From: Minisyncoccota bacterium
GTDB taxonomy: Bacteria > Patescibacteriota > Microgenomatia > UBA1400 > PJMF01
Length of the DNA stretch: 64,000 nucleotides
Assembly: GCA_009991965.1 (NCBI GenBank)
Contig: JAACWQ010000004.1
Location: forward strand, 42,074 to 106,073
Reading direction: 5' to 3'
This document shows positions 31,209-42,745 of the stretch, one piece after another. The notes under the pieces are model-generated. The model was not told where the DNA came from and ran no database searches. It was given only the letters and a program-made list of their open reading frames with translations. The stretch's first letter is position 1. The number at the start of each line of letters is the position of its first letter. Position numbers and translations under genes: made by a program.

Positions 31209-32660
31209 TTAAAATCCTGGTTCATAATATGTTCCGCTAGCTGCCCCCCTTAATTTAATGAGTTGAACTTGAACCAAACCTTGCAGATCTTTATTTATTG
31301 TAGGTCGTGAAGCGCTGGGTGAAAGCTTAACACATTCTTTTGCAGTAATTGTTGGATTCTCTTGTAAAAAATGCCATATTTTTATTTGTCTTTCATTTAA
31401 ATGTGAGAATGTATCTCCCAACAAAACAACTTTAAAACTGTTTGCTGCATTTTTGAAGATGGGCTCTAGTAGAGACCATTCTTCCATTCTAGATAAAACT
31501 ATATTAATTCCTCTTCCATACTCCTCAAGATAATCTAAGTCTTTTAGTAAAGAAGCGATAATTTCATTTCTACTAAACTGAGAGTCTCTGAGGTTTTCAA
31601 TTGTAATTCCCGGAGGAAGATTTCCTGGATTTGAAATTTCTATCCTATTAGAAAAAATGTTAATTTGAGTATACGTTTCAGTTATAAGATAATCTCTATG
31701 AATAACCGCATTTGCCACAAGTTCTCGAATTGCCTCAGGAGGATACTCGTATTTTTCAACCCTCTTCGAACCAATAATTTCTGCTCTCAGAGAAATATTT
31801 CTAAGTATAAATTGGTGAATTAAATCAATTTGTTCATCAAGGGTCCCAAGAATATCCTGCTTGTCTAAAATTGGAGTAGAAACAGAAAATCCTGCATATC
31901 GCACACATCTAACCACATAACGGGAAAAAGGAAGTAAGGTCTGGGGCTGGACATTAGAAAATATGAGAAAACCTCCAACAGTTGGAAAATAATTACCATT
32001 AAAATTATCTATCACGCCAAGATTTTTCATCACTTTGTTTGTTGGTGCACTATCAACAAATTTTCTTTTAGCTTTTTCAGCACTCTTAATGAGTAATTCT
32101 TTAATCTTGCCAACATCTAAAAGATCTATGCTAGCCTGAGATGCCTGAGTCTTATCAAATTTAAAAATGTCTGAATTCCTAATGAATGCCCTCATTTCTT
32201 CATCAGTAATAACTCTATCCACATTGCCTTCTCGAATACAGGCGCCCCTAGGTAACCCCAGTCTCTTATTAAAGCAAGGCTTTCGCTCCTCGTTTGTTTC
32301 GGAAACACAAAGAACTAGAAGCTCTTTTTTATCAAGCTCAACAATTCTCAAACTATAAATACCATGATTTTGCATTACTTCATTTAAAAAACTTACTATT
32401 TTTTCTTGAAGAAATGCCAAGTCTAGTCCACCCACTATTTCAATTTTGCCACTGTCTCTATCTTCATAAATTCCAAAAACTATAATTCCTCCTCCGGGTT
32501 TGTGAGAGAAGGAAGAAATTGATTTCCAACAGCTACTTGGGAACCCACCTCTAGCGTCTTTAAATTCGACATTGTCTGTCTCAGTTTTATGATGTCTGGC
32601 TTTTTTAATTAATGCAACTAATTGCTCATCATCGAATTTCATAATGAGATTATACTTCAT
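31209..32660 (-). CDS. Schlafen/AlbA_2 domain ATP-binding protein with C-terminal RecG-C-like wHTH
   Basis: N-terminal AlbA_2 motif (ETDNVEFKDARGGFP); C-terminal HATPase_c_4/wHTH-like region. Confidence 0.5.
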   Translation of the reverse strand: MKYNLIMKFDDEQLVALIKKARHHKTETDNVEFKDARGGFPSSCWKSISSFSHKPGGGIIVFGIYEDRDSGKIEIVGGLDLAFLQEKIVSFLNEVMQNHGIYSLRIVELDKKELLVLCVSETNEERKPCFNKRLGLPRGACIREGNVDRVITDEEMRAFIRNSDIFKFDKTQASQASIDLLDVGKIKELLIKSAEKAKRKFVDSAPTNKVMKNLGVIDNFNGNYFPTVGGFLIFSNVQPQTLLPFSRYVVRCVRYAGFSVSTPILDKQDILGTLDEQIDLIHQFILRNISLRAEIIGSKRVEKYEYPPEAIRELVANAVIHRDYLITETYTQINIFSNRIEISNPGNLPPGITIENLRDSQFSRNEIIASLLKDLDYLEEYGRGINIVLSRMEEWSLLEPIFKNAANSFKVVLLGDTFSHLNERQIKIWHFLQENPTITAKECVKLSPSASRPTINKDLQGLVQVQLIKLRGAASGTYYEPGF

Positions 32661-33880: not shown

Positions 33881-34678
33881 TTAAGTAGCAACATCCCGAA
33901 CTCTTCTCTCCTGACGAATTGTCAATACTGACAAAAGATTTTCTGCAATCGATGCTTGCAAAATCGCGTTTGTAGAAGCAAGTTCTAGCACTCTCTGTCT
34001 GTATTCCGCACAAAGTTTGGGATCTGGCGTAAACCCAGCATAACCGGTAATTAAGATAGCTGCGCCCATCATATCCATACTTATGTCCATGCAATTAGAT
34101 GTAATGAACTCAAGATTTCCATTGCCAATCTCAGTGGCATACTCGCGAATATCTTCCAAACCAACAAATGTTAGATGACCTCCATACCCTACGAGGGAAT
34201 CCCACGGATGATCTAGTTCCTTCATCCAATCTATCAAAGTGGAAACAAATTCTTTCGCATGTGAAGGAACCACACACAGTATGTCGTAATCTAAATTTAC
34301 AGGATCGTCATAGCGCATTGACCCATAAACCAAAACCACAATCTTGTTGTCTCTCAGATACTGCAAACGTTCTGTAAAAAATACTTTGAGCACCCTGTAA
34401 CCCTCAATCACTCTTGGACTTTTTGCTGAATCTGGGTTAACTTGAAGTGTTTCTAACGCTCTACGAGTATCTGCAATTACTTCAGGGATGCTATTAGGAT
34501 TAAGGAGTAAATTGAATAGAGGTAGTATCGTTCTCTCCGAGTGATATTCTCCAAGAAGTGGTTTTACAAAACTTCTGGATAATGGCGGAAGTAAATCCCA
34601 GTTAGGTGTTGGTAGTTCTGTCATTGCCCCAATCATATCAAACAAAAAAAACGCCGAGTGGCGATTTCTTCGTTTCAT
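33881..34678 (-). CDS. Pol-beta-superfamily nucleotidyltransferase domain protein
   Basis: hG[GS]x9-13Dh[DE] signature (VLVYGSMRYDDPVNLDYDILCVV), unusually placed mid-protein. Confidence 0.45.
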   Translation of the reverse strand: MKRRNRHSAFFLFDMIGAMTELPTPNWDLLPPLSRSFVKPLLGEYHSERTILPLFNLLLNPNSIPEVIADTRRALETLQVNPDSAKSPRVIEGYRVLKVFFTERLQYLRDNKIVVLVYGSMRYDDPVNLDYDILCVVPSHAKEFVSTLIDWMKELDHPWDSLVGYGGHLTFVGLEDIREYATEIGNGNLEFITSNCMDISMDMMGAAILITGYAGFTPDPKLCAEYRQRVLELASTNAILQASIAENLLSVLTIRQERRVRDVAT

Positions 34679-35039
34679 TGTTGACTATCTGGGATGATAT
34701 CCGAACATGGATTGAAAGTCAAAAATTGTTCATGTTTCCAGATACAGCAATGGCTGTGCCTGCTGCTGCTGAATACCTGCGGTGGAAATGTCTGAGTTGA
34801 TGACCACTTCAAACAACAACTAAGCAAGTTGCGTATATTGTTTGTATTGACAAACTTATACTTTTTGTATATGTTAGAAGATGCTCTTTAACATGGTTTA
34901 ATTGTGAAACTCATTCATACTCCATTATTTTAGACCCTTGAGGTCTGAACTTATTTTCCTTGCAAAAAAATGAGTGTTTCCGTCCAGTGACTATTCTTAT
35001 GTAATAATTTTTCACTTGATCAGGGAGATACTAAATAGC

Positions 35040-35320
35040 TCGTGGCTCTTTAGTTGTAGCGGAACGCTATCATATGCGAGCCTGAATGAGCCACATACTA
35101 GGAAGTATCGACCTACTATTATTAAATAAACAGTTTTAGTAAGAAAGGCGCCGATTATGGATACAACGCTTCTTAATTTGTCACAAGTTAAACCTAGCGT
35201 TCCGTTCATAAGGGCGGTCACTTCTGAAAATAATACTCTTGATCATCAGAGTAATCAGACTAATTGTCTGGATTATTCGACTCATGATCGAGTTAAAACA
35301 GATGTAGCCGCCCTTTAGCT
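35040..35320 (+). ncRNA. candidate structured ncRNA upstream of the HTH-RT pair (retron msr/msd-like)
   Basis: Nested inverted repeats gcggaacgct (35060-35069) with agcgttccg (35196-35204), and aagggcgg (35210-35217) with ccgccctt (35308-35315); long imperfect hairpin at about 35229-35290 with apical stem aatcagac/gtctggatt; a TTGACA -35-like hexamer at 34847. Confidence 0.3.
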
Positions 35321-35337
35321 CGAAACAGATTATAACT

Positions 35338-35664
35338 ATGAACTCTTTACCCATATTTTTAAAACAACTTAGAAAAGCGAGTTCTCTGACACAAATAGAG
35401 CTTGCAAATGCTCTAGGAGTATCTACTGTACTAATATCGATGCTTGAGTCTGGTCAAAAAAAAGCCTCGCTTAAATTCTTGCACATATTAGCTCGGAAAT
35501 TGAAAGTTCATCCTGGAGCTATTGCTCCACTCGCTTTCAATGACCATGCTAGCGCGAATCAAAGCGAAACCAGCCAACTAGAAAAAAAATTGATCAATTT
35601 AGGCATTAAACTACAAGAAGAACTGATAAAGAAAAAGGCGAAGTACCTTAAAATAGATGGCTAA
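35338..35664 (+). CDS. XRE-family HTH protein
   Basis: HTH_3 (LTQIELANALGVSTVLISMLESGQKKASLKFLHILARKL); 8-bp overlap with the RT gene start. Confidence 0.65.
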   Translation: MNSLPIFLKQLRKASSLTQIELANALGVSTVLISMLESGQKKASLKFLHILARKLKVHPGAIAPLAFNDHASANQSETSQLEKKLINLGIKLQEELIKKKAKYLKIDG

Positions 35665-36622
35665 TATTTACCCTCAAATTAGTATTAGAAGCAAGAATGA
35701 GCTTGCAAAGCAAATAAGCTCAGTAAAGCTCCCCTTTGAGGGAGCGTTAAGCCTGATTAATAATGTAATTGAAAACTACGACACGTACTGGAAAGACAGC
35801 AAAAAATCAGAACCTCAAAAAAGAAAATATGTAAGGACAGCTGTAGGCACCCCTCTTGATACCCTTCTGAAAGCTATTGATAAAAAGCTCTTGCAGACTC
35901 ATGACAAGCTCATACCTGGCTTTATTTTCGGCGGTGTAAAAGGTAAGAGTCACATTGCAGCTGCATACCATCTTGTAGGAAATAGAAATAAAAGAATCTT
36001 GTTAAAGATGGATATTTCAAGATTCTTCGAGAAAATTACACGAGAACGCGTCTTTTATTTCTTTAACAAAAAATGCAACTGCAGCGTCAAAGCCTCTAAT
36101 TTGCTTGCCGACCTATGCTGTGTACCAAAAGGTAAAAAGGGTAGTACTGACCCTACTAAGACCATAGCTAGAGGTTTCCCAACTTCATCAAGGTTAGCCA
36201 TATGGACCAACTTGGAAACATTTCTTAAATTGCGGCATACAGTAACCAAGAAACTAAAAAATCATGACCCACAAACAGTAATCTTTGTTGACGACATAGG
36301 TATTTCGGCAAGTCGAACATCCAAAGAATCGCTAGATGAAATAAGAAAGTCAGTGCAAAAAATTCTTCTGTCACATGATCGAAATCAACCGCTCCCTGCA
36401 AATAAGGGAAAAACAAAAATCATTCCCTTTTCTGAAGGAGCAGAACATCTTGGACTACTCCTAGGAAGAAATAAAATTAGTATAGGCAGGAAAACCAAAT
36501 CAAGAATGGCAACGATAAGAAGTTTGGTCGGTAAATCGCGTGGTGAAACAAAAAAATCACTAATTAAAAGAGAGGCATCTTACTACAGATACAAAAAACA
36601 AATTGAAGAAACTATCATTTGA
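35657..36622 (+). CDS. reverse transcriptase (small, retron/Abi/DRT-like)
   Basis: RT motifs: LKMDISRFFEKI (motif 2), GFPTSSRLAIWTNLE (motif 4/B'), VIFVDDIGIS (YxDD-type motif 5/C), KTKIIPF...HLGLLLG (motifs 6/7). Confidence 0.6.
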   Translation: MANIYPQISIRSKNELAKQISSVKLPFEGALSLINNVIENYDTYWKDSKKSEPQKRKYVRTAVGTPLDTLLKAIDKKLLQTHDKLIPGFIFGGVKGKSHIAAAYHLVGNRNKRILLKMDISRFFEKITRERVFYFFNKKCNCSVKASNLLADLCCVPKGKKGSTDPTKTIARGFPTSSRLAIWTNLETFLKLRHTVTKKLKNHDPQTVIFVDDIGISASRTSKESLDEIRKSVQKILLSHDRNQPLPANKGKTKIIPFSEGAEHLGLLLGRNKISIGRKTKSRMATIRSLVGKSRGETKKSLIKREASYYRYKKQIEETII

Positions 36623-36773
36623 GCGAACTACATCAATTTTCATTAGTGGTTCACTTTTACACTGCAAAGCTTTGAATCAAACTCTGGATTTCCAATCTTG
36701 CCTGATGTAGCAGCTCGCTATCCAAGAAATCAACCATTTCTTGCGTATTCATTTTTACTTTTAACAACATATT

Positions 36774-37589
36774 TTAACTCTCTTTTGCCACTTCTTCAGC
36801 CAGCTGGGGATTGAGTACTACAACAATAATTCCTAGACTTTTATAAAACGAAAGCCACCAAATACCTCCGCTCTTATCATCTTTGATAGCTACGTTCTTG
36901 TAGGAAAGTACTTCTCCAAATCTACCGACAGTTGGACTTTGCTTGCTTAGCAATTCTGGTAGCCAGTTTGGAGGATCCCAGTACACTTGAAACACTTGCT
37001 CATCAAGAATGCGATCTCCACAATTCTGATAGTAAAGACCCTTAACAATCTTAATTGCTACTCTGTCTACTCTGTCACTATCGATTTTTATTCCATCGAC
37101 TTTTCTGGTTATTAAACCATCAGATGAGGTTGTGACAACGGTAACGATGTCTCTTCTAATAAGGTCTAACTTAGAAACAGTTTTACTTCGTTCATACGGT
37201 CTCATATAACTGGGCTGAGTTCCCTCTTTGAAGACTTGCCGGGCAATGGTATTTTGACCAACTATAGAGAAGCGGTCTCTAATATACTCCTCATCGAGGT
37301 TGAGGAGATTATTACACGCTTTACAAGTTGGTAATTTGTAGCCTCGTGAGTTTGACATCCGATCTAAGGTAAGTGCTAGATGCTCAACACCTTTTTTTGG
37401 AAACAAAGTCTTAGGTGGAACATGATCCCAAGATTCTGCTTCATTTTTCCCACATAAATAGCAAATTAATCCAGATTTCATTAGTTGATATTGTACAGGG
37501 GGAAGATTTGTTTCGCTTATATTGACCGGCCATAATCTTGGCTGCAACATTATGAATTTTTGGTATAGACAACTAATGTCGAGGTGCAC
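36774..37589 (-). CDS. HNH endonuclease domain protein
   Basis: CYLCGK...WDHVPPK...CKACNNLL (CxxC...DH..P...CxxCN); divergent from the TerS gene. Confidence 0.5.
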   Translation of the reverse strand: MHLDISCLYQKFIMLQPRLWPVNISETNLPPVQYQLMKSGLICYLCGKNEAESWDHVPPKTLFPKKGVEHLALTLDRMSNSRGYKLPTCKACNNLLNLDEEYIRDRFSIVGQNTIARQVFKEGTQPSYMRPYERSKTVSKLDLIRRDIVTVVTTSSDGLITRKVDGIKIDSDRVDRVAIKIVKGLYYQNCGDRILDEQVFQVYWDPPNWLPELLSKQSPTVGRFGEVLSYKNVAIKDDKSGGIWWLSFYKSLGIIVVVLNPQLAEEVAKES

Positions 37590-37658: not shown

Positions 37659-38138
37659 ATGGGCAGAGAAGCAAAACAAAGCAATAACCTAACTAGAAAG
37701 CAATCATCTTTTGTTAAAAGGCTAATTTTGGGTGATTCAGCCACTCAAGCTGCATTGGCTACTTATGGTACTTCCGACCCCAAAGTTGCCTCTTCAATAG
37801 CCAGTGAGAACCTGAATAAACCTGCTATTAGAGAAGCTATTGAGCAGGCTTTCAGATCAAAGGGTCTATCCTTGGATGTAATTGTTTCAAATATTGGAGA
37901 ATTAGCAAATCACAAACCAACAAAAATCAGTGGAGAAACCAAACTAAAAGCTAATATCGAACTCTTAAAGCTGTTGGGGGCATATTATCTAGATAGAAAA
38001 AGATCGAGCATTAGTGTCTCATTCTCATCACAAGTTAGCGCCATGACTTTCAGTGAAGCTAAAGCAAGCATGCTTGAGCTACAAGCAACTACAGAAGAGT
38101 TAATGGCAGACATTGAAACTACCCCCCACACCACCTAA
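37659..38138 (+). CDS. phage terminase small subunit (Terminase_2/P27 family)
   Basis: LTRKQSSFVKRLILGDSATQAALATYGTSDPKVASSIASENLNKPAIREAIEQA matches the TerS family consensus pattern. Confidence 0.65.
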   Translation: MGREAKQSNNLTRKQSSFVKRLILGDSATQAALATYGTSDPKVASSIASENLNKPAIREAIEQAFRSKGLSLDVIVSNIGELANHKPTKISGETKLKANIELLKLLGAYYLDRKRSSISVSFSSQVSAMTFSEAKASMLELQATTEELMADIETTPHTT

Positions 38139-38202
38139 AGTGAATCATAAATAATAATGACTTAGCCCCTTTTCAATGGGCGATAATTTTTTTAGGAAAT
38201 TC

Positions 38203-38484
38203 TCAAAATGGTAATAACTCCGAAGCAGGTACTTTCAAAGCTTTTGCTACTTTATAAAGCGTTCTTATTGTTGGGTTTCTTTCCCCTCGTTCAATCAAAC
38301 CGATATAAGTTCTATGCATTGATAGCAATTCAGCTAACTTTTCTTGAGAGATGCCCCTAGACTGTCTAACTTTTTGCATTTTTTGCCCAAACTTCAGTAA
38401 AATTGAGTGATGAGTTATTGGCTTTCCCATTAAGGGAATATTAGAGACTACTAGTCTCAACTTCGACAGACTCCTTGTCATCAT
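38203..38484 (-). CDS. XRE-family HTH regulator
   Basis: HTH_3 (ISQEKLAELLSMHRTYIGLIERGERNPTIRTLYKVAKAL); divergent from the downstream plus-strand genes. Confidence 0.6.
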   Translation of the reverse strand: MMTRSLSKLRLVVSNIPLMGKPITHHSILLKFGQKMQKVRQSRGISQEKLAELLSMHRTYIGLIERGERNPTIRTLYKVAKALKVPASELLPF

Positions 38485-40817: not shown

Positions 40818-42545
40818 ATGCAAACCAATATCAAACTTCAAAACCTTAAATGGATCATTTACTGTAGAAAAAGTACCGACACCGAAGATAAACAGATAGA
40901 ATCGTTGCCTGCCCAAAAGAAAGAATTGCTTGATCTTGCTAAACGTAGCGGATTTAATCAGATAGTAAAGATATACACCGAATCGCACTCGGCATTTCAC
41001 CCAGGTAGACCAGAGTTTAATGACATGATTGATCGTCTTTATAAGGGCGAGGCAAACGCAGTGATGGTATGGGCAGGTAATAGAATTGCTCGAAACTCCA
41101 AAGATGCTGGTAGCTTTATTTATGCGATGGATCAGGGGAAAATACTGGCCGTGAGAACTATCGGTGGCACTTACTTTAACACCCCAGACAACAAATTCGC
41201 ACTCAGCATAGACTTCACAGTTTCCAAAAAATCGTCTGATGATCTGAGCGAAGCGGTGCTCAGAGGAAATAGGGTTAAGTTTTTTGAAAACAAGGAATGG
41301 ATTGGACCAGCCAAGCAAGGCTTTATAAATTTTACCGAGCCATATACAAAAAAACGTGACGTTCAGGTCGACCAAGATAGATTCAATCTACTGCAGCTAG
41401 CAGGAGGAAAAATAGTGAGTGGCGAACTAACACCATTAGAATCACTAAATTGGCTGAATCATGATATGGGATATCGAACTCTTCCTCAGAGGAAACAAGG
41501 TGGTGGTCCACTATCAGAAACAACTTTCTATAATGTATTGTCCGATCCCTTTTACTATGGTGTCATGAGCAGAAATGTTCAAGGTGAGGTCCAAGAAGCA
41601 GAACATAAATACTCCAAGATGTTTAGCAAAACAGAGTGGGACATTATCCAGGTCAGACTTGGTAAAAAAAGCCGGTCAAAACAAAAGAAGCATGACTTCC
41701 CTTACAAGGGGGTCATGAGCTGTGGGGAGTGCGGAGGATTTGTGACGGCCGAAGAAAAATGGCAGATCATCTGTCCTGCTTGTAAAACAAAGTTTGCCAA
41801 GACCAAAAAACGCACAAGCTGCATCTCTTGCGGTTTGGAAATTGATCAAATGAAAAATCCCACTATCTTGAACTACGTTTATTATCACTGCACTAAAAAA
41901 GTTAACAAAAACTGTGCCCAGGGTTATCTTGAAATGAGCGAACTAGAACGGCAGATTGATTCGGAACTCCAGCGATTCGAGATTGACCCAGACTTCAAGG
42001 ACTGGGCAATCAACCACTTGAGTGAGCTGAATGAACACGAGTCGAAGCAAGATGAGCGAGCTACTGTACGCAATACTGGCAATTATGAGAACCTGAAAAC
42101 ACAACTTAGGCGGATGACAAAACACCGGTTCTCTGACTCGTACGAGGAATCAAGCCAAGAAGAGAAAGAGGTTTTCGAAGATGAACTAAATAAGCTCAAG
42201 GCACAAATAGAAACAACAAAAGATAGCATTAAAAATACTGATGAGAAACAGTATGATTGGATTGAGCTATCAAGGAAAACGTTCGAGTTTGCTTGTTATT
42301 CCAGATACTGGTTCCGTCACGGGGACATTAAAACTAAGACACAAATCCTCCAGTTACTTGGTCAGAACCTAAAGCTGTATAACAAGAAAGTGTTGGTAGA
42401 CGAGGATAATCTTTGGTGGCTAATTGAAAAAGCAAAGAAAGAAGTTGAAATCTTAGGAGTCAGGGTCGAACCTACAAAAAAAGCGAGTCAATCAAGCTTT
42501 AATGCCCTCTTTGATCCCGCCATTCCCACATTGTTGCGGGACTAG
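40818..42545 (+). CDS. large serine recombinase
   Basis: N-terminal resolvase catalytic domain (IIYCRKSTDTEDKQ, Ser nucleophile), recombinase domain, zinc ribbon (CGECGG...CPAC; CISCG...HC), coiled coil. Confidence 0.8.
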   Translation: MQTNIKLQNLKWIIYCRKSTDTEDKQIESLPAQKKELLDLAKRSGFNQIVKIYTESHSAFHPGRPEFNDMIDRLYKGEANAVMVWAGNRIARNSKDAGSFIYAMDQGKILAVRTIGGTYFNTPDNKFALSIDFTVSKKSSDDLSEAVLRGNRVKFFENKEWIGPAKQGFINFTEPYTKKRDVQVDQDRFNLLQLAGGKIVSGELTPLESLNWLNHDMGYRTLPQRKQGGGPLSETTFYNVLSDPFYYGVMSRNVQGEVQEAEHKYSKMFSKTEWDIIQVRLGKKSRSKQKKHDFPYKGVMSCGECGGFVTAEEKWQIICPACKTKFAKTKKRTSCISCGLEIDQMKNPTILNYVYYHCTKKVNKNCAQGYLEMSELERQIDSELQRFEIDPDFKDWAINHLSELNEHESKQDERATVRNTGNYENLKTQLRRMTKHRFSDSYEESSQEEKEVFEDELNKLKAQIETTKDSIKNTDEKQYDWIELSRKTFEFACYSRYWFRHGDIKTKTQILQLLGQNLKLYNKKVLVDEDNLWWLIEKAKKEVEILGVRVEPTKKASQSSFNALFDPAIPTLLRD

Positions 42546-42602
42546 GGGTCGAACCTAGCCTGTGAGATTATGAGCCTCACGTGCACCGTACACTATCCCG
42601 CG
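42534..42602 (-). tRNA. tRNA-like gene, anticodon CAT; C1xA72 mismatch suggests an initiator tRNA-fMet; D-loop unusually short
   Basis: Reverse strand folds as acceptor CGCGGGA/TCCCGCA, D stem GTGT/GCAC, anticodon stem-loop TGAGG-CTCATAA-TCTCA, T arm CTAGG-TTCGACC-CCTAG; 3' end overlaps the recombinase stop codon. Confidence 0.45.
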
Positions 42603-42665
42603 GTCAAGATTATACAGCTTATCTGGTAAAGGTCAAAAGTTTGGTATACTATAGCCTGGTTTCGT

Positions 42666-42739
42666 GCCAGGGTAGCTCAGTTGGTTAGAGCATGGGATTC
42701 ATAAACCCAAGGTCGAGAGTTCGAATCTCTCCCCTGGTA
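42666..42739 (+). tRNA. tRNA-Met (anticodon CAT; possibly the Ile2/lysidine isoacceptor)
   Basis: GCCAGGG acceptor, D arm GCTC-AGTTGGTTA-GAGC, anticodon loop TTCATAA, T arm GAGAG-TTCGAAT-CTCTC, discriminator A. Confidence 0.8.
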
Positions 42740-42745
42740 CACTGT

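What the first reader, a model, noticed from the sequence alone, without database searches (positions are those of the whole stretch)
35040..36622. Retron-like module: structured ncRNA candidate, then an XRE-HTH gene, then a small reverse transcriptase
A 321-aa ORF (35657-36622) carries clear RT motifs: motif 2 LKMDISRFFEKI, motif B' GFPTSSRLAIWTNLE, FVDD catalytic motif, and KTK...HLGLLLG. Its start overlaps the stop of an XRE-family HTH gene (35338-35664). The ~280 bp non-coding stretch upstream of the HTH gene has nested long-range inverted repeats (10 nt at 35060/35196; 8-12 nt at 35210/35308) and a long imperfect hairpin (35229-35290). That is what an msr/msd-type ncRNA would look like. 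The order ncRNA, HTH, RT matches how I recall the HTH-containing retron class (type VI) being described, but Abi-type or DRT/UG-type RTs are alternative readings. The module is cargo in an island of a probably reduced-genome bacterium, where retrons are essentially undescribed. This makes it the best candidate for a novel system in the window.
Basis: partly seen in the sequence, partly recalled or inferred. Interest (0 to 1): 0.8.

Follow-up and report, generated by a model that had tools for sequence, protein, structure and literature searches.

The report
Type VI retron with hidden toxin gene
This is a reverse-transcriptase-based anti-phage system (a type VI retron) in a tiny-genome "Candidatus Pacebacteria" bacterium; the kind is already known, but its "non-coding" leader hides a short toxin-like gene nested inside a second reading frame.

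Summary
The HTH gene (35338-35664), the overlapping 321-aa RT (35657-36622), the RT motifs and the inverted repeats are all present. The type VI retron reading is supported. PADLOC's best models are RT_VI (2.9e-31, full length) and HTH_VI (1.4e-12), and the only solved relatives are retron RTs.

Three corrections:
- **Extent.** The structured leader starts near 34885, after a conserved promoter. At about 450 nt it is as long as the published type VI "hybrid RNA".
- **Coding content.** They tie the upstream RNA domain to a small ORF and enclose that ORF. Frame B (35224-35307, CTG start here, ATG in 40 of 43 relatives) encodes an amphipathic peptide that resembles the C-terminal helix of known type VI small-protein toxins. 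It is under protein-level selection. It lies in the +1 frame inside a 53-codon ORF (35157-35318) whose sequence is unconstrained but which is kept free of stop codons.
- **Novelty.** Type VI retrons from such bacteria are already in the published retron set, and one was tested.

msDNA, toxicity and defence are untested. Verdict: new variant of a known kind, moderate interest.

The parts
34847..34875 (+). Promoter-like site (TTGACA, 17 nt, TATGTT). The -10 region aligns with conserved GTATAAT/GTATATA in related loci.
   Evidence: Consensus scan. Conservation starts here in 49 loci. Transcription itself is not shown.
34885..35337 (+). Conserved structured leader of about 450 nt, the counterpart of the type VI hybrid RNA (hyRNA). 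It has an msr/msd-like domain followed by a domain holding small ORFs.
   Evidence: Conservation profile. Fold z = -5.45. Covariation. Length and layout match the Retron-Vpa2 hyRNA of about 470 nt.
34894..34901 (+). 5' arm of helix H2 (family motif AAAATCAATT). It pairs with 35188-35195 and closes the whole upstream domain, like a1/a2.
   Evidence: 8 bp, 94.8% paired, all 8 pairs with double changes. Also.
34932..34946 (+). Conserved hairpin (AGACC...GGTCT) with a variable distal stem in relatives.
   Evidence: 5 bp, 90.7% paired, 3 pairs with double changes..
34951..35028 (+). Hairpin region of variable length, up to about 200 nt longer in relatives. Candidate msd template stem (inferred only).
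   Evidence: Alignment gaps and insertions. Fold of the window. Compared with the variable SL3 of Retron-Sen3.
35041..35093 (+). Helix Y-Z (35041-35048 with 35086-35093). Its loop carries the 5' arm of H3.
   Evidence: 8 bp, 89.4% paired, all 8 pairs with double changes. RNAalifold consensus.
35060..35069 (+). It pairs with 35195-35204 and crosses H2 and Y-Z, so it forms a pseudoknot or an alternative state.
   Evidence: Exact 10-nt inverted repeat. 6 core bp, 90.3% paired, all with double changes..
35157..35318 (+). Frame A ORF, 53 codons, ATG with AAAGG 9 nt upstream. Its sequence is unconstrained but it is kept open. Its stop lies 19 nt before the HTH ATG here (median 11 nt in relatives).
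   Evidence: Open in 50 of 50 loci examined. 1 stop against 93 and 50 in the other frames upstream of frame B. 1 frame-A stop seen against 62.5 expected inside frame B. Mean BLOSUM62 -0.39.
35188..35204 (+). Adjacent 3' arms of H2 (35188-35195) and H3 (35195-35204), forming the junction just upstream of H1.
35209..35217 (+). 5' arm of helix H1 (TAAGGGCGG), which is also the Shine-Dalgarno-like element of frame B. It pairs with 35308-35316.
   Evidence: 9 bp, 92.5% paired, all 9 pairs with double changes. This region has a low predicted unpaired probability, 0.21 against an average of 0.38.
35224..35307 (+). Frame B ORF, the candidate small-protein (SP) toxin: (M)KIILLIIRVIRLIVWIIRLMIELKQM, 27 aa. 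CTG start here, TTG in close relatives, ATG in 40 of 43 loci. The frame is open from 35212. The ORF also forms a long hairpin.
   Evidence: Codon-position diversity 0.63/0.44/0.71, mean BLOSUM62 +0.76. Indels are multiples of 3. Start codons. Hydrophobic moment 0.66 and likeness to the Yersinia and Shewanella SP helices. Hairpin z = -4.48 here.
35308..35316 (+). 3' arm of H1 (CCGCCCTTT). It starts right after the frame B stop and overlaps the first base of the frame A stop.
35338..35664 (+). Cro/C1-type HTH protein, 108 aa. By analogy with published systems it is the antitoxin and RT partner.
   Evidence: Pfam HTH_3 5.6e-12. PADLOC HTH_VI 1.4e-12 as best hit. Size is within the 91-110 aa of cluster 2_1.
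35657..36622 (+). Retron reverse transcriptase, 321 aa, catalytic FVDD. Its start overlaps the HTH stop by 8 nt.
   Evidence: RVT_1 1.3e-10. RT_VI 2.9e-31 over the full length. 22 of 22 clade members best-hit RT_VI. PDB matches are only the Ec86 and Ec83 retron RTs.

Best explanation
The locus is a type VI retron, an abortive-infection-type anti-phage system. It belongs to a large, divergent subclade that is spread across Patescibacteria (CPR).

**Layout (shown by computation).** One promoter near 34847-34875 drives a structured hybrid RNA of about 450 nt, followed by the HTH and RT genes, whose ends overlap.
- The RNA has an upstream msr/msd-like domain closed by helix H2 (34894-34901 with 35188-35195).
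- A loop of that domain pairs with the junction, forming helix H3, a pseudoknot.
- Helix H1 (35209-35217 with 35308-35316) buries the Shine-Dalgarno-like GGGCGG and encloses a 27-codon ORF.
- That ORF, frame B, encodes a cationic amphipathic helix, the likely membrane-active toxin (SP).
- Frame B sits in the +1 frame of a longer ORF, frame A. Frame A's peptide sequence is free to vary, but selection keeps it open, and it ends just before the HTH start.

**Mechanism (inferred from published type VI retrons).** RT and HTH bind the RNA. The toxin is held off by RNA structure, as in Retron-Vpa2, and/or by the HTH protein, as in Retron-Sen3. A phage cue triggers or exploits reverse transcription of the msd part. 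The RNA then remodels and the toxin arrests the cell.

**My own inference.** Translation of frame A acts as a coupling or leader ORF, as mok does for hok. It would set how often H1 opens and feed ribosomes to the HTH start.
For: **Family placement.**
- RT_VI 2.9e-31 and HTH_VI 1.4e-12 are the best PADLOC models. 22 of 22 clade RTs give RT_VI as best hit.
- The only PDB relatives are retron RTs.
- Gene order, HTH size and the HTH/RT overlap fit the type VI definition.

**Distribution.** The RT is 100% identical to a protein of a Candidatus Pacebacteria MAG, with 295 homologues. 70 loci were found in species-representative genomes, almost all Patescibacteria.

**RNA.**
- Conservation runs from the promoter to the HTH ATG.
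- Fold z = -5.45.
- Five helices are 91.7% paired, 34 of 36 pairs have compensatory changes, and 0 of 500 shuffles reach the observed values.

**Toxin ORF (frame B).**
- It has a coding signature: third codon positions are saturated and second positions are 63% T. Mean BLOSUM62 is +0.76, against -0.39 and -0.42 for the other frames.
- Indels are multiples of three.
- ATG is the start in 40 of 43 loci, and TTG or CTG in the window's subclade.
- Its helix resembles the annotated SPs of the Yersinia and Shewanella type VI retrons: RIAVWIYKLFTD against RLIVWIIRLMIE.

**Frame A kept open.** 1 stop seen against 62.5 expected inside frame B. 1 against 93 and 50 upstream of it.

**Published models.**
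Against: - No transcript, msDNA, toxicity or defence data exist for this locus or for any CPR member.
- The one CPR type VI retron that was tested gave no RT-DNA in E. coli, though with a different, guessed ncRNA.
- The RT is only 24-26% identical to proteobacterial type VI RTs. In place of their NA..H and (V/I)TG motifs it has AAAYH and HLG. The RT_VI score of 107 bits is that of a distant member.
- In the window, frame B has no ATG, GTG or well-placed TTG start, only CTG. The toxin may therefore be weakly made or silent here.
- No branching G or msd boundaries can be assigned.
- H3 crosses H2 and Y-Z, so some of these helices may be alternatives rather than coexisting.
- Shine-Dalgarno use is low in this genome (10 of 49 long ORFs). 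The coupling argument for the HTH therefore rests on spacing alone.
Confidence: 0.8

Rival explanations
1. The RT belongs to a non-retron defence family (an Abi-type or DRT/UG-type RT) that only happens to sit beside an HTH gene. The leader would then be an ordinary regulatory 5' UTR.
For: The RT also matches UG17 (4.7e-11), Drt3a (7.1e-8) and UG26. The canonical retron motifs NAxxH and VTG are altered. There is no Rfam retron hit.
Against: - RT_VI is better by about 20 orders of magnitude and covers the full length of the model. The next nine models are all retron types.
- The HTH's best model is HTH_VI.
- PDB hits are retron RTs only.
- The 450-nt leader has an a1/a2-like closing helix and an SP-like ORF, as in published type VI retrons.
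Confidence: 0.04
2. Frame A (35157-35318) is the real small protein of the system. Frame B would be a by-product of its codon usage or of RNA structure.
For: Frame A has ATG and AAAGG. Gene callers annotate it in relatives (53 aa in L074). Its 48-61 aa size matches the 48-55 aa of Vpa2-type SPs. It is open in every locus examined.
Against: - Within the overlap, frame A's third codon position is the most conserved (0.44) and its first position is saturated (0.71), the reverse of a coding signature.
- Its mean BLOSUM62 of -0.39 equals that of the non-coding third frame.
- Its conserved N-terminal and C-terminal motifs coincide exactly with the arms of helices H2, H3 and H1.
- It has no hydrophobic helix (hydrophobic moment 0.16), unlike known SPs.
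Confidence: 0.06
3. The toxin is made by a programmed +1 ribosomal frameshift from frame A into frame B near the GGGCGG element. The fusion of about 50 aa would be colinear with proteobacterial SPs, with a hydrophilic N-terminus and an amphipathic C-terminal helix.
For: - Frame B is the +1 frame of A in 45 of 49 loci.
- A fusion would match the 48-55 aa size and layout of known SPs.
- An internal Shine-Dalgarno-like element just upstream of the junction recalls the prfB frameshift site (my own knowledge).
- The window lacks a canonical start for frame B.
Against: - 40 of 43 loci have an ATG in frame B at the homologous position, many with GGAGG 5-7 nt upstream.
- Many loci have a frame B stop immediately before the GR codons, which leaves only a few codons for a shift.
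- No conserved slippery motif was seen.
- Frame A is kept open all the way past frame B, which a pure frameshift model does not need.
Confidence: 0.07
4. The copy in this window is a decaying or silenced retron: the toxin start has mutated to CTG and the system no longer defends.
For: CTG occurs at the start position only in the window among the 43 loci scored, and also in its sister locus L073, which was not in that set. One relative (L031) has lost frame B altogether.
Against: - All three ORFs and every helix are intact.
- The peptide sequence is conserved across the subclade, which uses TTG or CTG throughout (L073, L075, L077, L003).
- A weak start is plausible for a toxin gene.
Confidence: 0.08

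Closest known systems
Type VI retrons of the 'Large' lineage, e.g. Retron-Vpa2 of Vibrio parahaemolyticus (Zhang et al., bioRxiv 10.1101/2025.10.22.683967)
   Same: - The order is structured RNA, small toxin ORF, Cro/C1 HTH, RT.
- The hybrid RNA is of similar length (about 470 nt there, about 450 nt here), with arms meeting at a central node.
- An a1/a2-like long-range pairing is present.
- The toxin's ribosome-binding site is sequestered in a stem, and the rest of the toxin ORF forms its own arm.
   Different: - The RT is only about 25% identical to proteobacterial members and its NA..H and VTG motifs are altered.
- The toxin is about 23-27 aa (helix only) rather than 55 aa.
- It is nested in the +1 frame of a second ORF that is kept open. 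No such overlap is mentioned in that paper.
- Here a loop-to-junction helix (H3) covaries, whereas that paper invokes 7-nt direct repeats.
- No msDNA or trigger data exist here.
Retron-Sen3 and the cl2075 type VI lineage (Garcia-Rodriguez et al., bioRxiv 10.64898/2026.04.27.721009); a related copy on Yersinia phage vB_YenM_56.17
   Same: - SP-HTH-RT operon with overlapping HTH and RT genes.
- A conserved ncRNA upstream.
- A distal inverted repeat (IR1-IR2) flanks the SP ORF, comparable to H1 here.
- The SP ORF is under RNA-structure selection.
- The SP has an amphipathic C-terminal helix.
   Different: - The cl2075 SP is 79 aa in Retron-Sen3 and is encoded in a single frame.
- IR1-IR2 showed no significant covariation there, whereas H1 covaries strongly here.
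- The hosts are Beta- and Gammaproteobacteria and their P2-like phages. No close relative of this clade was found in viral contigs.
hok/mok/sok type I toxin-antitoxin locus of plasmid R1 (from my own knowledge, not tested here)
   Same: - A short membrane-active toxin ORF is overlapped by a longer upstream-starting ORF in another frame.
- The toxin's ribosome-binding site is buried by long-range RNA pairing, so translation depends on RNA refolding.
   Different: - No antisense RNA is evident.
- The regulator here would be an RT, msDNA and an HTH protein.
- There is no sequence relationship.
- The coupling role of frame A is an inference.
Candidatus Levybacteria type VI retron (Mestre-729), tested in the retron census (Khan et al., PMC10849725)
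   Same: A type VI retron from a CPR bacterium that is already in the curated retron set.
   Different: - It was tested in E. coli with a guessed ncRNA whose sequence, by eye, does not resemble the leader defined here.
- It gave 0 RT-DNA by PAGE.
- Its relationship to the window's RT was not measured.

Membership tests
Type VI retron (Mestre et al. 2020) | RT belongs to retron RT clade 3, type VI subgroup | tested here: met
   PADLOC RT_VI is the best hit at 2.9e-31 and 107 bits, covering model positions 1-274 of 279. The next is RT_IV at 4e-17. 22 of 22 clade members give RT_VI as best hit, best 2.6e-34. No tree with the curated set could be built.
Type VI retron (Mestre et al. 2020) | Small (91-110 aa) Cro/C1-type HTH protein (cluster 2_1) immediately upstream of, or overlapping, the RT gene | tested here: met
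   108 aa. HTH_3 5.6e-12. HTH_VI 1.4e-12 as best PADLOC model. 8-nt overlap with the RT. Definition taken.
Type VI retron (Mestre et al. 2020) | Small protein (SP) toxin ORF between the ncRNA and the HTH gene, helical with a hydrophobic or amphipathic C-terminus (present in only part of the family) | tested here: met
   Frame B, 35224-35307, is under protein-level selection. Its hydrophobic moment is 0.66, and it resembles the Yersinia and Shewanella SP helices. It is shorter than known SPs, has a non-ATG start here, and is nested in a second ORF. Toxicity was not tested.
Type VI retron (Mestre et al. 2020) | Conserved structured RNA (ncRNA/hyRNA) upstream, with long-range pairing that links the ncRNA and the SP region and sequesters the SP ribosome-binding site | tested here: met
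   Five covarying helices. RNAalifold consensus. The GGGCGG element lies in the 5' arm of H1. Architecture compared.
Retrons in general | RT-dependent synthesis of msDNA primed from a branching G next to the a1/a2 stem | not testable with these tools
   H2 is a1/a2-like, and a G lies within 0-3 nt of its 5' arm in most loci (alignment). Neither the branching G nor the msd ends can be assigned from sequence.
Retrons in general | Signature RT motifs NAxxH and VTG (recalled from my own knowledge of retron RTs) | tested here: not met
   The window has AAAYH and HLG. The two proteobacterial type VI RTs have NARKH/NAQSH and ITG. Only the A and the G are invariant across the alignment. This marks a divergent subclade. 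It lowers the membership claim slightly, but not the architecture-based claim.
Retrons in general | Match to a curated retron RNA family (Rfam msr) | tested here: not met
   No retron family matched at E <= 10 over 34000-37500. No type VI RNA family turned up in this scan, so the result carries little weight.
Retrons in general | Confers anti-phage defence by abortive infection | not testable with these tools
   No cultured host exists. This needs heterologous expression.
DRT/UG or Abi reverse transcriptases | Best profile match to a UG/DRT or Abi RT model | tested here: not met
   The best DRT-type models are UG17 at 4.7e-11 and Drt3a at 7.1e-8, far below RT_VI.
Group II intron, DGR or CRISPR-associated RTs | Best match to those RT classes, with intron RNA domains, a DGR template repeat or adjacent cas genes | tested here: not met
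   The only CRISPR-associated RT model listed scores 1.3e-7. No group II intron or other RNA family matched. PDB profile hits are retron RTs only. No cas genes are among the neighbours.

The most novel reading that the evidence does not exclude
Across Patescibacteria, type VI retrons have been reshaped into a triple-constrained cassette. A 21-30-aa amphipathic toxin ORF also forms the long arm of the regulatory RNA, and it is read through in another frame by a translated ORF that carries no sequence constraint. The act of translating that second ORF, rather than its product, would gate toxin and antitoxin synthesis, as mok does for hok, but here under the control of an RT, msDNA and a pseudoknotted hybrid RNA. 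This would be an undescribed regulatory layer for retrons. It would also explain why the one CPR retron tested with a guessed ncRNA produced nothing.
Probability: 0.45. Interest if true: 0.65.

Novelty: new variant of a known kind. Interest (0 to 1): 0.5.

Why it matters
- **Reach of retrons.** A retron lineage turns out to be common in CPR/Patescibacteria: 70 species-level genomes and hundreds of metagenomic homologues. These are ultra-small, host-dependent bacteria whose defence repertoires are little known.
- **A testable RNA model.** The work gives a covariation-backed model of the type VI hybrid RNA from an independent, very divergent lineage. This supports the idea, so far resting on two preprints, that the toxin gene is embedded in the retron RNA.
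- **A concrete regulatory question.** The nested toxin ORF inside an ORF that is kept open raises a specific question: translation-coupled control of a retron toxin.
- **Practical use.** The native boundaries (34847-36622) tell experimenters what to clone. The earlier census used a different, guessed ncRNA for a CPR type VI retron and saw no RT-DNA.
- **Annotation.** Gene callers annotate frame A and miss the likely toxin.

Tried and rejected
- **Rfam scan.** A permissive scan of 34000-37500 gave only chance-level hits (NrrF at E = 0.12, a CRISPR repeat, a snoRNA) and no retron RNA.
- **Search for a 5'-to-3' closing helix at the HTH start.** An ungapped search for complementarity was noisy and did not support the pairing of 34892-34904 with 35323-35341 seen in the window's MFE fold.
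- **Structure-aware MAFFT.** Q-INS-i is not installed.
- **Full-length tool alignment (A2).** It misaligned H1 and Y-Z. I therefore realigned the conserved blocks joined by A10 linkers (A3). The block borders come from my own E-INS-i alignment, which is a dependence to bear in mind.
- **Helix B3-B7a (about 34918-34925 with 35075-35081).** It has duplex-energy support (z = -4) but only a 4-bp column signal. It crosses Y-Z and is left as tentative.
- **The X-Y local hairpin (35030-35039 with 35045-35054).** Support is weak (z = -1.7).
- **Shine-Dalgarno arguments.**
  - A strict Shine-Dalgarno sequence before frame A is clear in only about a third of loci.
  - The lack of one before the HTH is uninformative, because only 10 of 49 long ORFs in the window have one.
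  - I dropped the claim that the HTH must be translationally coupled and keep only the spacing observation.
- **Predicted accessibility.** Thermodynamic accessibilities are noisy.
- **Viral contigs.** The search gave only 25%-identical hits, so there is no evidence that this clade is phage-borne.
- **Plasmid hits.** All are distant, 28% identity or less over most of the protein.
Full report
**1. The observation**

The two genes are as described. An HTH ORF lies at 35338-35664 (108 aa) and a 321-aa ORF at 35657-36622. Its ATG overlaps the HTH stop by 8 nt.

The inverted repeats are also there:
- an exact 10-nt pair at 35060-35069 / 35195-35204;
- a 28-nt imperfect pair at 35199-35226 / 35299-35326, with core GGGCGG/CCGCCC;
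- an inner hairpin at 35238-35249 / 35281-35292.

The leader 34878-35345 folds at -130.4 kcal/mol, z = -5.45 against dinucleotide shuffles.

**2. What the proteins are**

- *RT.* Pfam gives RVT_1 at 1.3e-10. In PADLOC the best model is RT_VI at 2.9e-31, matched end to end. It is followed by other retron types (RT_IV at 4e-17, then II-A and III-A). DRT/UG models are far behind, the best being UG17 at 4.7e-11.
- *HTH.* Pfam gives HTH_3 at 5.6e-12. Its best PADLOC model is HTH_VI at 1.4e-12.
- *Clade.* All 22 aligned clade members give RT_VI as best hit.
- *Solved structures.* A profile of the clade finds only the retron RTs Ec86 and Ec83.
- *Definition.* Type VI is defined by a clade-3 RT plus a 91-110-aa Cro/C1 HTH (cluster 2_1) upstream of or overlapping the RT, sometimes with a small auxiliary protein. 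The locus fits this definition.
- *Caveats.* The RT is only 24-26% identical to two proteobacterial type VI RTs, from Yersinia phage vB_YenM_56.17 and Shewanella phage MuM16-1. Where those have NA..H and (V/I)TG, it has AAAYH and HLG. This is therefore a divergent subclade. I could not build a tree with the curated RT set.

**3. Host and spread**

The RT is identical to a hypothetical protein of a Candidatus Pacebacteria MAG. 295 homologues passed the threshold, and the best are 50-69% identical. A scan of species-representative genomes returned 70 loci. Almost all are labelled Patescibacteria: Saccharibacteria, Paceibacterota, Collierbacteria, Gottesmanbacteria and others. No close relative was found on viral contigs.

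In the window the module lies in a mobile-looking stretch:
- a terminase small-subunit-like ORF at 37659-38138;
- a large serine recombinase at 40818-42545, ending beside a tRNA-Met gene at 42533-42602.

Relatives sit in varied contexts, with an integrase, HEPN_AbiU2, a HaeIII-type restriction-modification pair and trypsin-like proteases. The flanking genes are therefore not part of the system.

**4. The leader is a hybrid RNA, not a plain ncRNA**

Two 2025-2026 preprints describe type VI retrons.
- In Retron-Vpa2, a hybrid RNA of about 470 nt carries the msr-msd and a translationally repressed small-protein (SP) toxin ORF. msDNA appears only on triggering and derepresses SP.
- In Retron-Sen3, SP is a toxin neutralised by the HTH. 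The ncRNA and the SP ORF form one conserved RNA framework.

Here, conservation across 49 loci runs from a promoter-like site (34847-34875) to the HTH ATG.

A column-wise covariation scan, duplex energies against shuffles and cross-controls, and RNAalifold all pick out the same helices:

| Helix | Arms | Note |
|---|---|---|
| H2 | 34894-34901 with 35188-35195 | The 5' family motif AAAATCAATT closes the upstream domain, like a1/a2 |
| Hairpin | 34932-34936 with 34942-34946 | Conserved hairpin |
| Y-Z | 35041-35048 with 35086-35093 | Its loop carries the 5' arm of H3 |

I tested these on an alignment of the conserved blocks of 24 loci (A3). The five helices are 91.7% paired, against 73.5% in shuffles and 33-43% with slid partners. 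34 of 36 pairs have changes on both sides, and 0 of 500 shuffles reach any measure.

H3 crosses H2 and Y-Z. It is therefore either a loop-to-junction pseudoknot or an alternative state.

Between the hairpin and Y-Z lies a hairpin region of variable length (34951-35028 here, up to about 200 nt longer elsewhere). It is the natural candidate for the msd stem, but that is an inference. No Rfam family matches.

**5. Two overlapping small ORFs**

Every locus examined has an ORF just upstream of the HTH (frame A: ATG start, median 52 aa). All but one or two also have a nested ORF, which is in the +1 frame in 45 of 49 loci (frame B).

*Frame B is the one selected as a protein.*
- Over its last 20 codons in 44 loci, nucleotide diversity is 0.63, 0.44 and 0.71 at codon positions 1, 2 and 3. 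Position 2 is 63% T and position 3 is compositionally flat.
- The mean pairwise BLOSUM62 score is +0.76 for frame B. It is -0.39 for frame A and -0.42 for the third frame.
- Indels in the region are all multiples of three.
- The peptide is a cationic amphipathic helix (consensus M-K/R-x-L-R-I-I-x-x-I-I-R-I-L-x-D-L). In the window it reads (M)KIILLIIRVIRLIVWIIRLMIELKQM, with hydrophobic moment 0.66.
- It resembles the C-terminal helix of the annotated SPs of the two proteobacterial type VI retrons: RIAVWIYKLFTD in Shewanella against RLIVWIIRLMIE here.

*Start codon.* Frame B starts with ATG in 40 of 43 loci, often with GGAGG or GGGCGG upstream. The window and its closest relatives have CTG or TTG at that codon.

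*RNA structure around frame B.* The Shine-Dalgarno-like GGGCGG is the 5' arm of H1. The 3' arm follows the frame B stop directly. The ORF interior is itself a long hairpin in 23 of 25 loci (mean z = -3.95).

*Frame A is not selected for its sequence, yet it is kept open.*
- Inside frame B, a T that would create a frame A stop occurs once in 255 at-risk sites, against 62.5 expected.
- Upstream of frame B, frame A has 1 stop in 643 codons, against 93 and 50 in the other two frames.
- Its conserved "LPY/VPF" and "VAAL" motifs are simply the arms of H2, H3 and H1.
- It ends a median of 11 nt before the HTH ATG.

I read frame A as a translated leader or coupling ORF, comparable to mok in hok/mok. 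That comparison comes from my own knowledge and is not a test. Shine-Dalgarno arguments are weak in this genome.

**6. Mechanism**

*Shown by computation:* family placement, operon layout, a conserved covarying RNA, a toxin-like ORF whose ribosome-binding site is buried, and a second ORF that is kept open.

*Inferred from the preprints:* RT and HTH bind the RNA. SP is held off by RNA structure and/or by the HTH. A phage cue couples reverse transcription to RNA remodelling, SP release and growth arrest.

*Not shown:* the transcript, msDNA, the branching G, toxicity, defence and triggers.

**7. Novelty**

The kind is known. A CPR member (Candidatus Levybacteria, Mestre-729) is already in the retron set. 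It gave no RT-DNA in E. coli, but it was tested with a guessed ncRNA that, by eye, does not resemble the leader defined here.

As far as the papers I searched show, three things have not been described:
- the size and CPR-wide spread of this subclade;
- a covariation-backed pseudoknotted RNA model;
- a miniaturised toxin nested in a second ORF that is kept open.

I rate this a new variant of a known kind, with moderate interest.

Noticed in passing
window 31209-32660 (-): A 483-aa protein with Schlafen/AlbA_2 and HATPase_c_4 domains. It matches PADLOC pAgo-associated models (3.8e-19). It may be another defence-related gene about 2.5 kb from the retron.
   Followed up: partly
window 40818-42740: A large serine recombinase (Resolvase plus Recombinase domains) ends beside a tRNA-Met gene (42533-42602, -). 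A second tRNA-Met follows at 42666-42740 (+). This looks like the integration end of a mobile element that may carry the retron.
   Followed up: partly
window 37659-38484: A terminase small-subunit-like ORF (Terminase_2, 3.1e-8) lies next to a divergent XRE-type HTH gene (38203-38484, -). This suggests a prophage remnant.
   Followed up: no
window 36774-37589 (-): A 271-aa ORF convergent with the RT has only faint HNH and PtuB-like hits (E about 0.01-0.03). It is not conserved next to the RT in relatives.
   Followed up: partly
L001 (JAHKLX010000106.1): The closest genome-collection relative of the RT (63% identity) is on a 5.8-kb contig of a MAG labelled Candidatus Micrarchaeota archaeon. This is either a binning error or a transfer between ultra-small bacteria and archaea.
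   Followed up: no
L031 (JAWKSL010000002.1), about 170 nt upstream of the HTH start at 2670: This one locus keeps frame A open but has stops in frame B. It may be a retron that has lost its toxin. L021 may be similar.
   Followed up: no
L075/L076 and L073/L074: Close relatives of the retron sit beside HEPN_AbiU2, a HaeIII-type restriction-modification pair, an HNH protein, trypsin-like proteases and a phage integrase. These are typical defence-island surroundings, and they differ from locus to locus.
   Followed up: no
window 35657-36622 and alignment A4: The CPR clade's RTs carry an insertion of about 10 residues (KGKKGSTDPT, residues 158-167) before the ARGF motif. The two proteobacterial type VI RTs lack it.
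   Followed up: no
L017, L026, L030, L040, L043, L051 (mostly Saccharibacteria-labelled loci), aligned to window 35030-35060: These loci have an extra segment (e.g. AATCGCGGTTACCAAA) that duplicates the sequence complementary to the Z arm. It gives a perfect 11-12-nt pairing with the downstream TGGTAACCGCGA. Possible alternative pairing partners within the Y-Z region were not resolved.
   Followed up: partly
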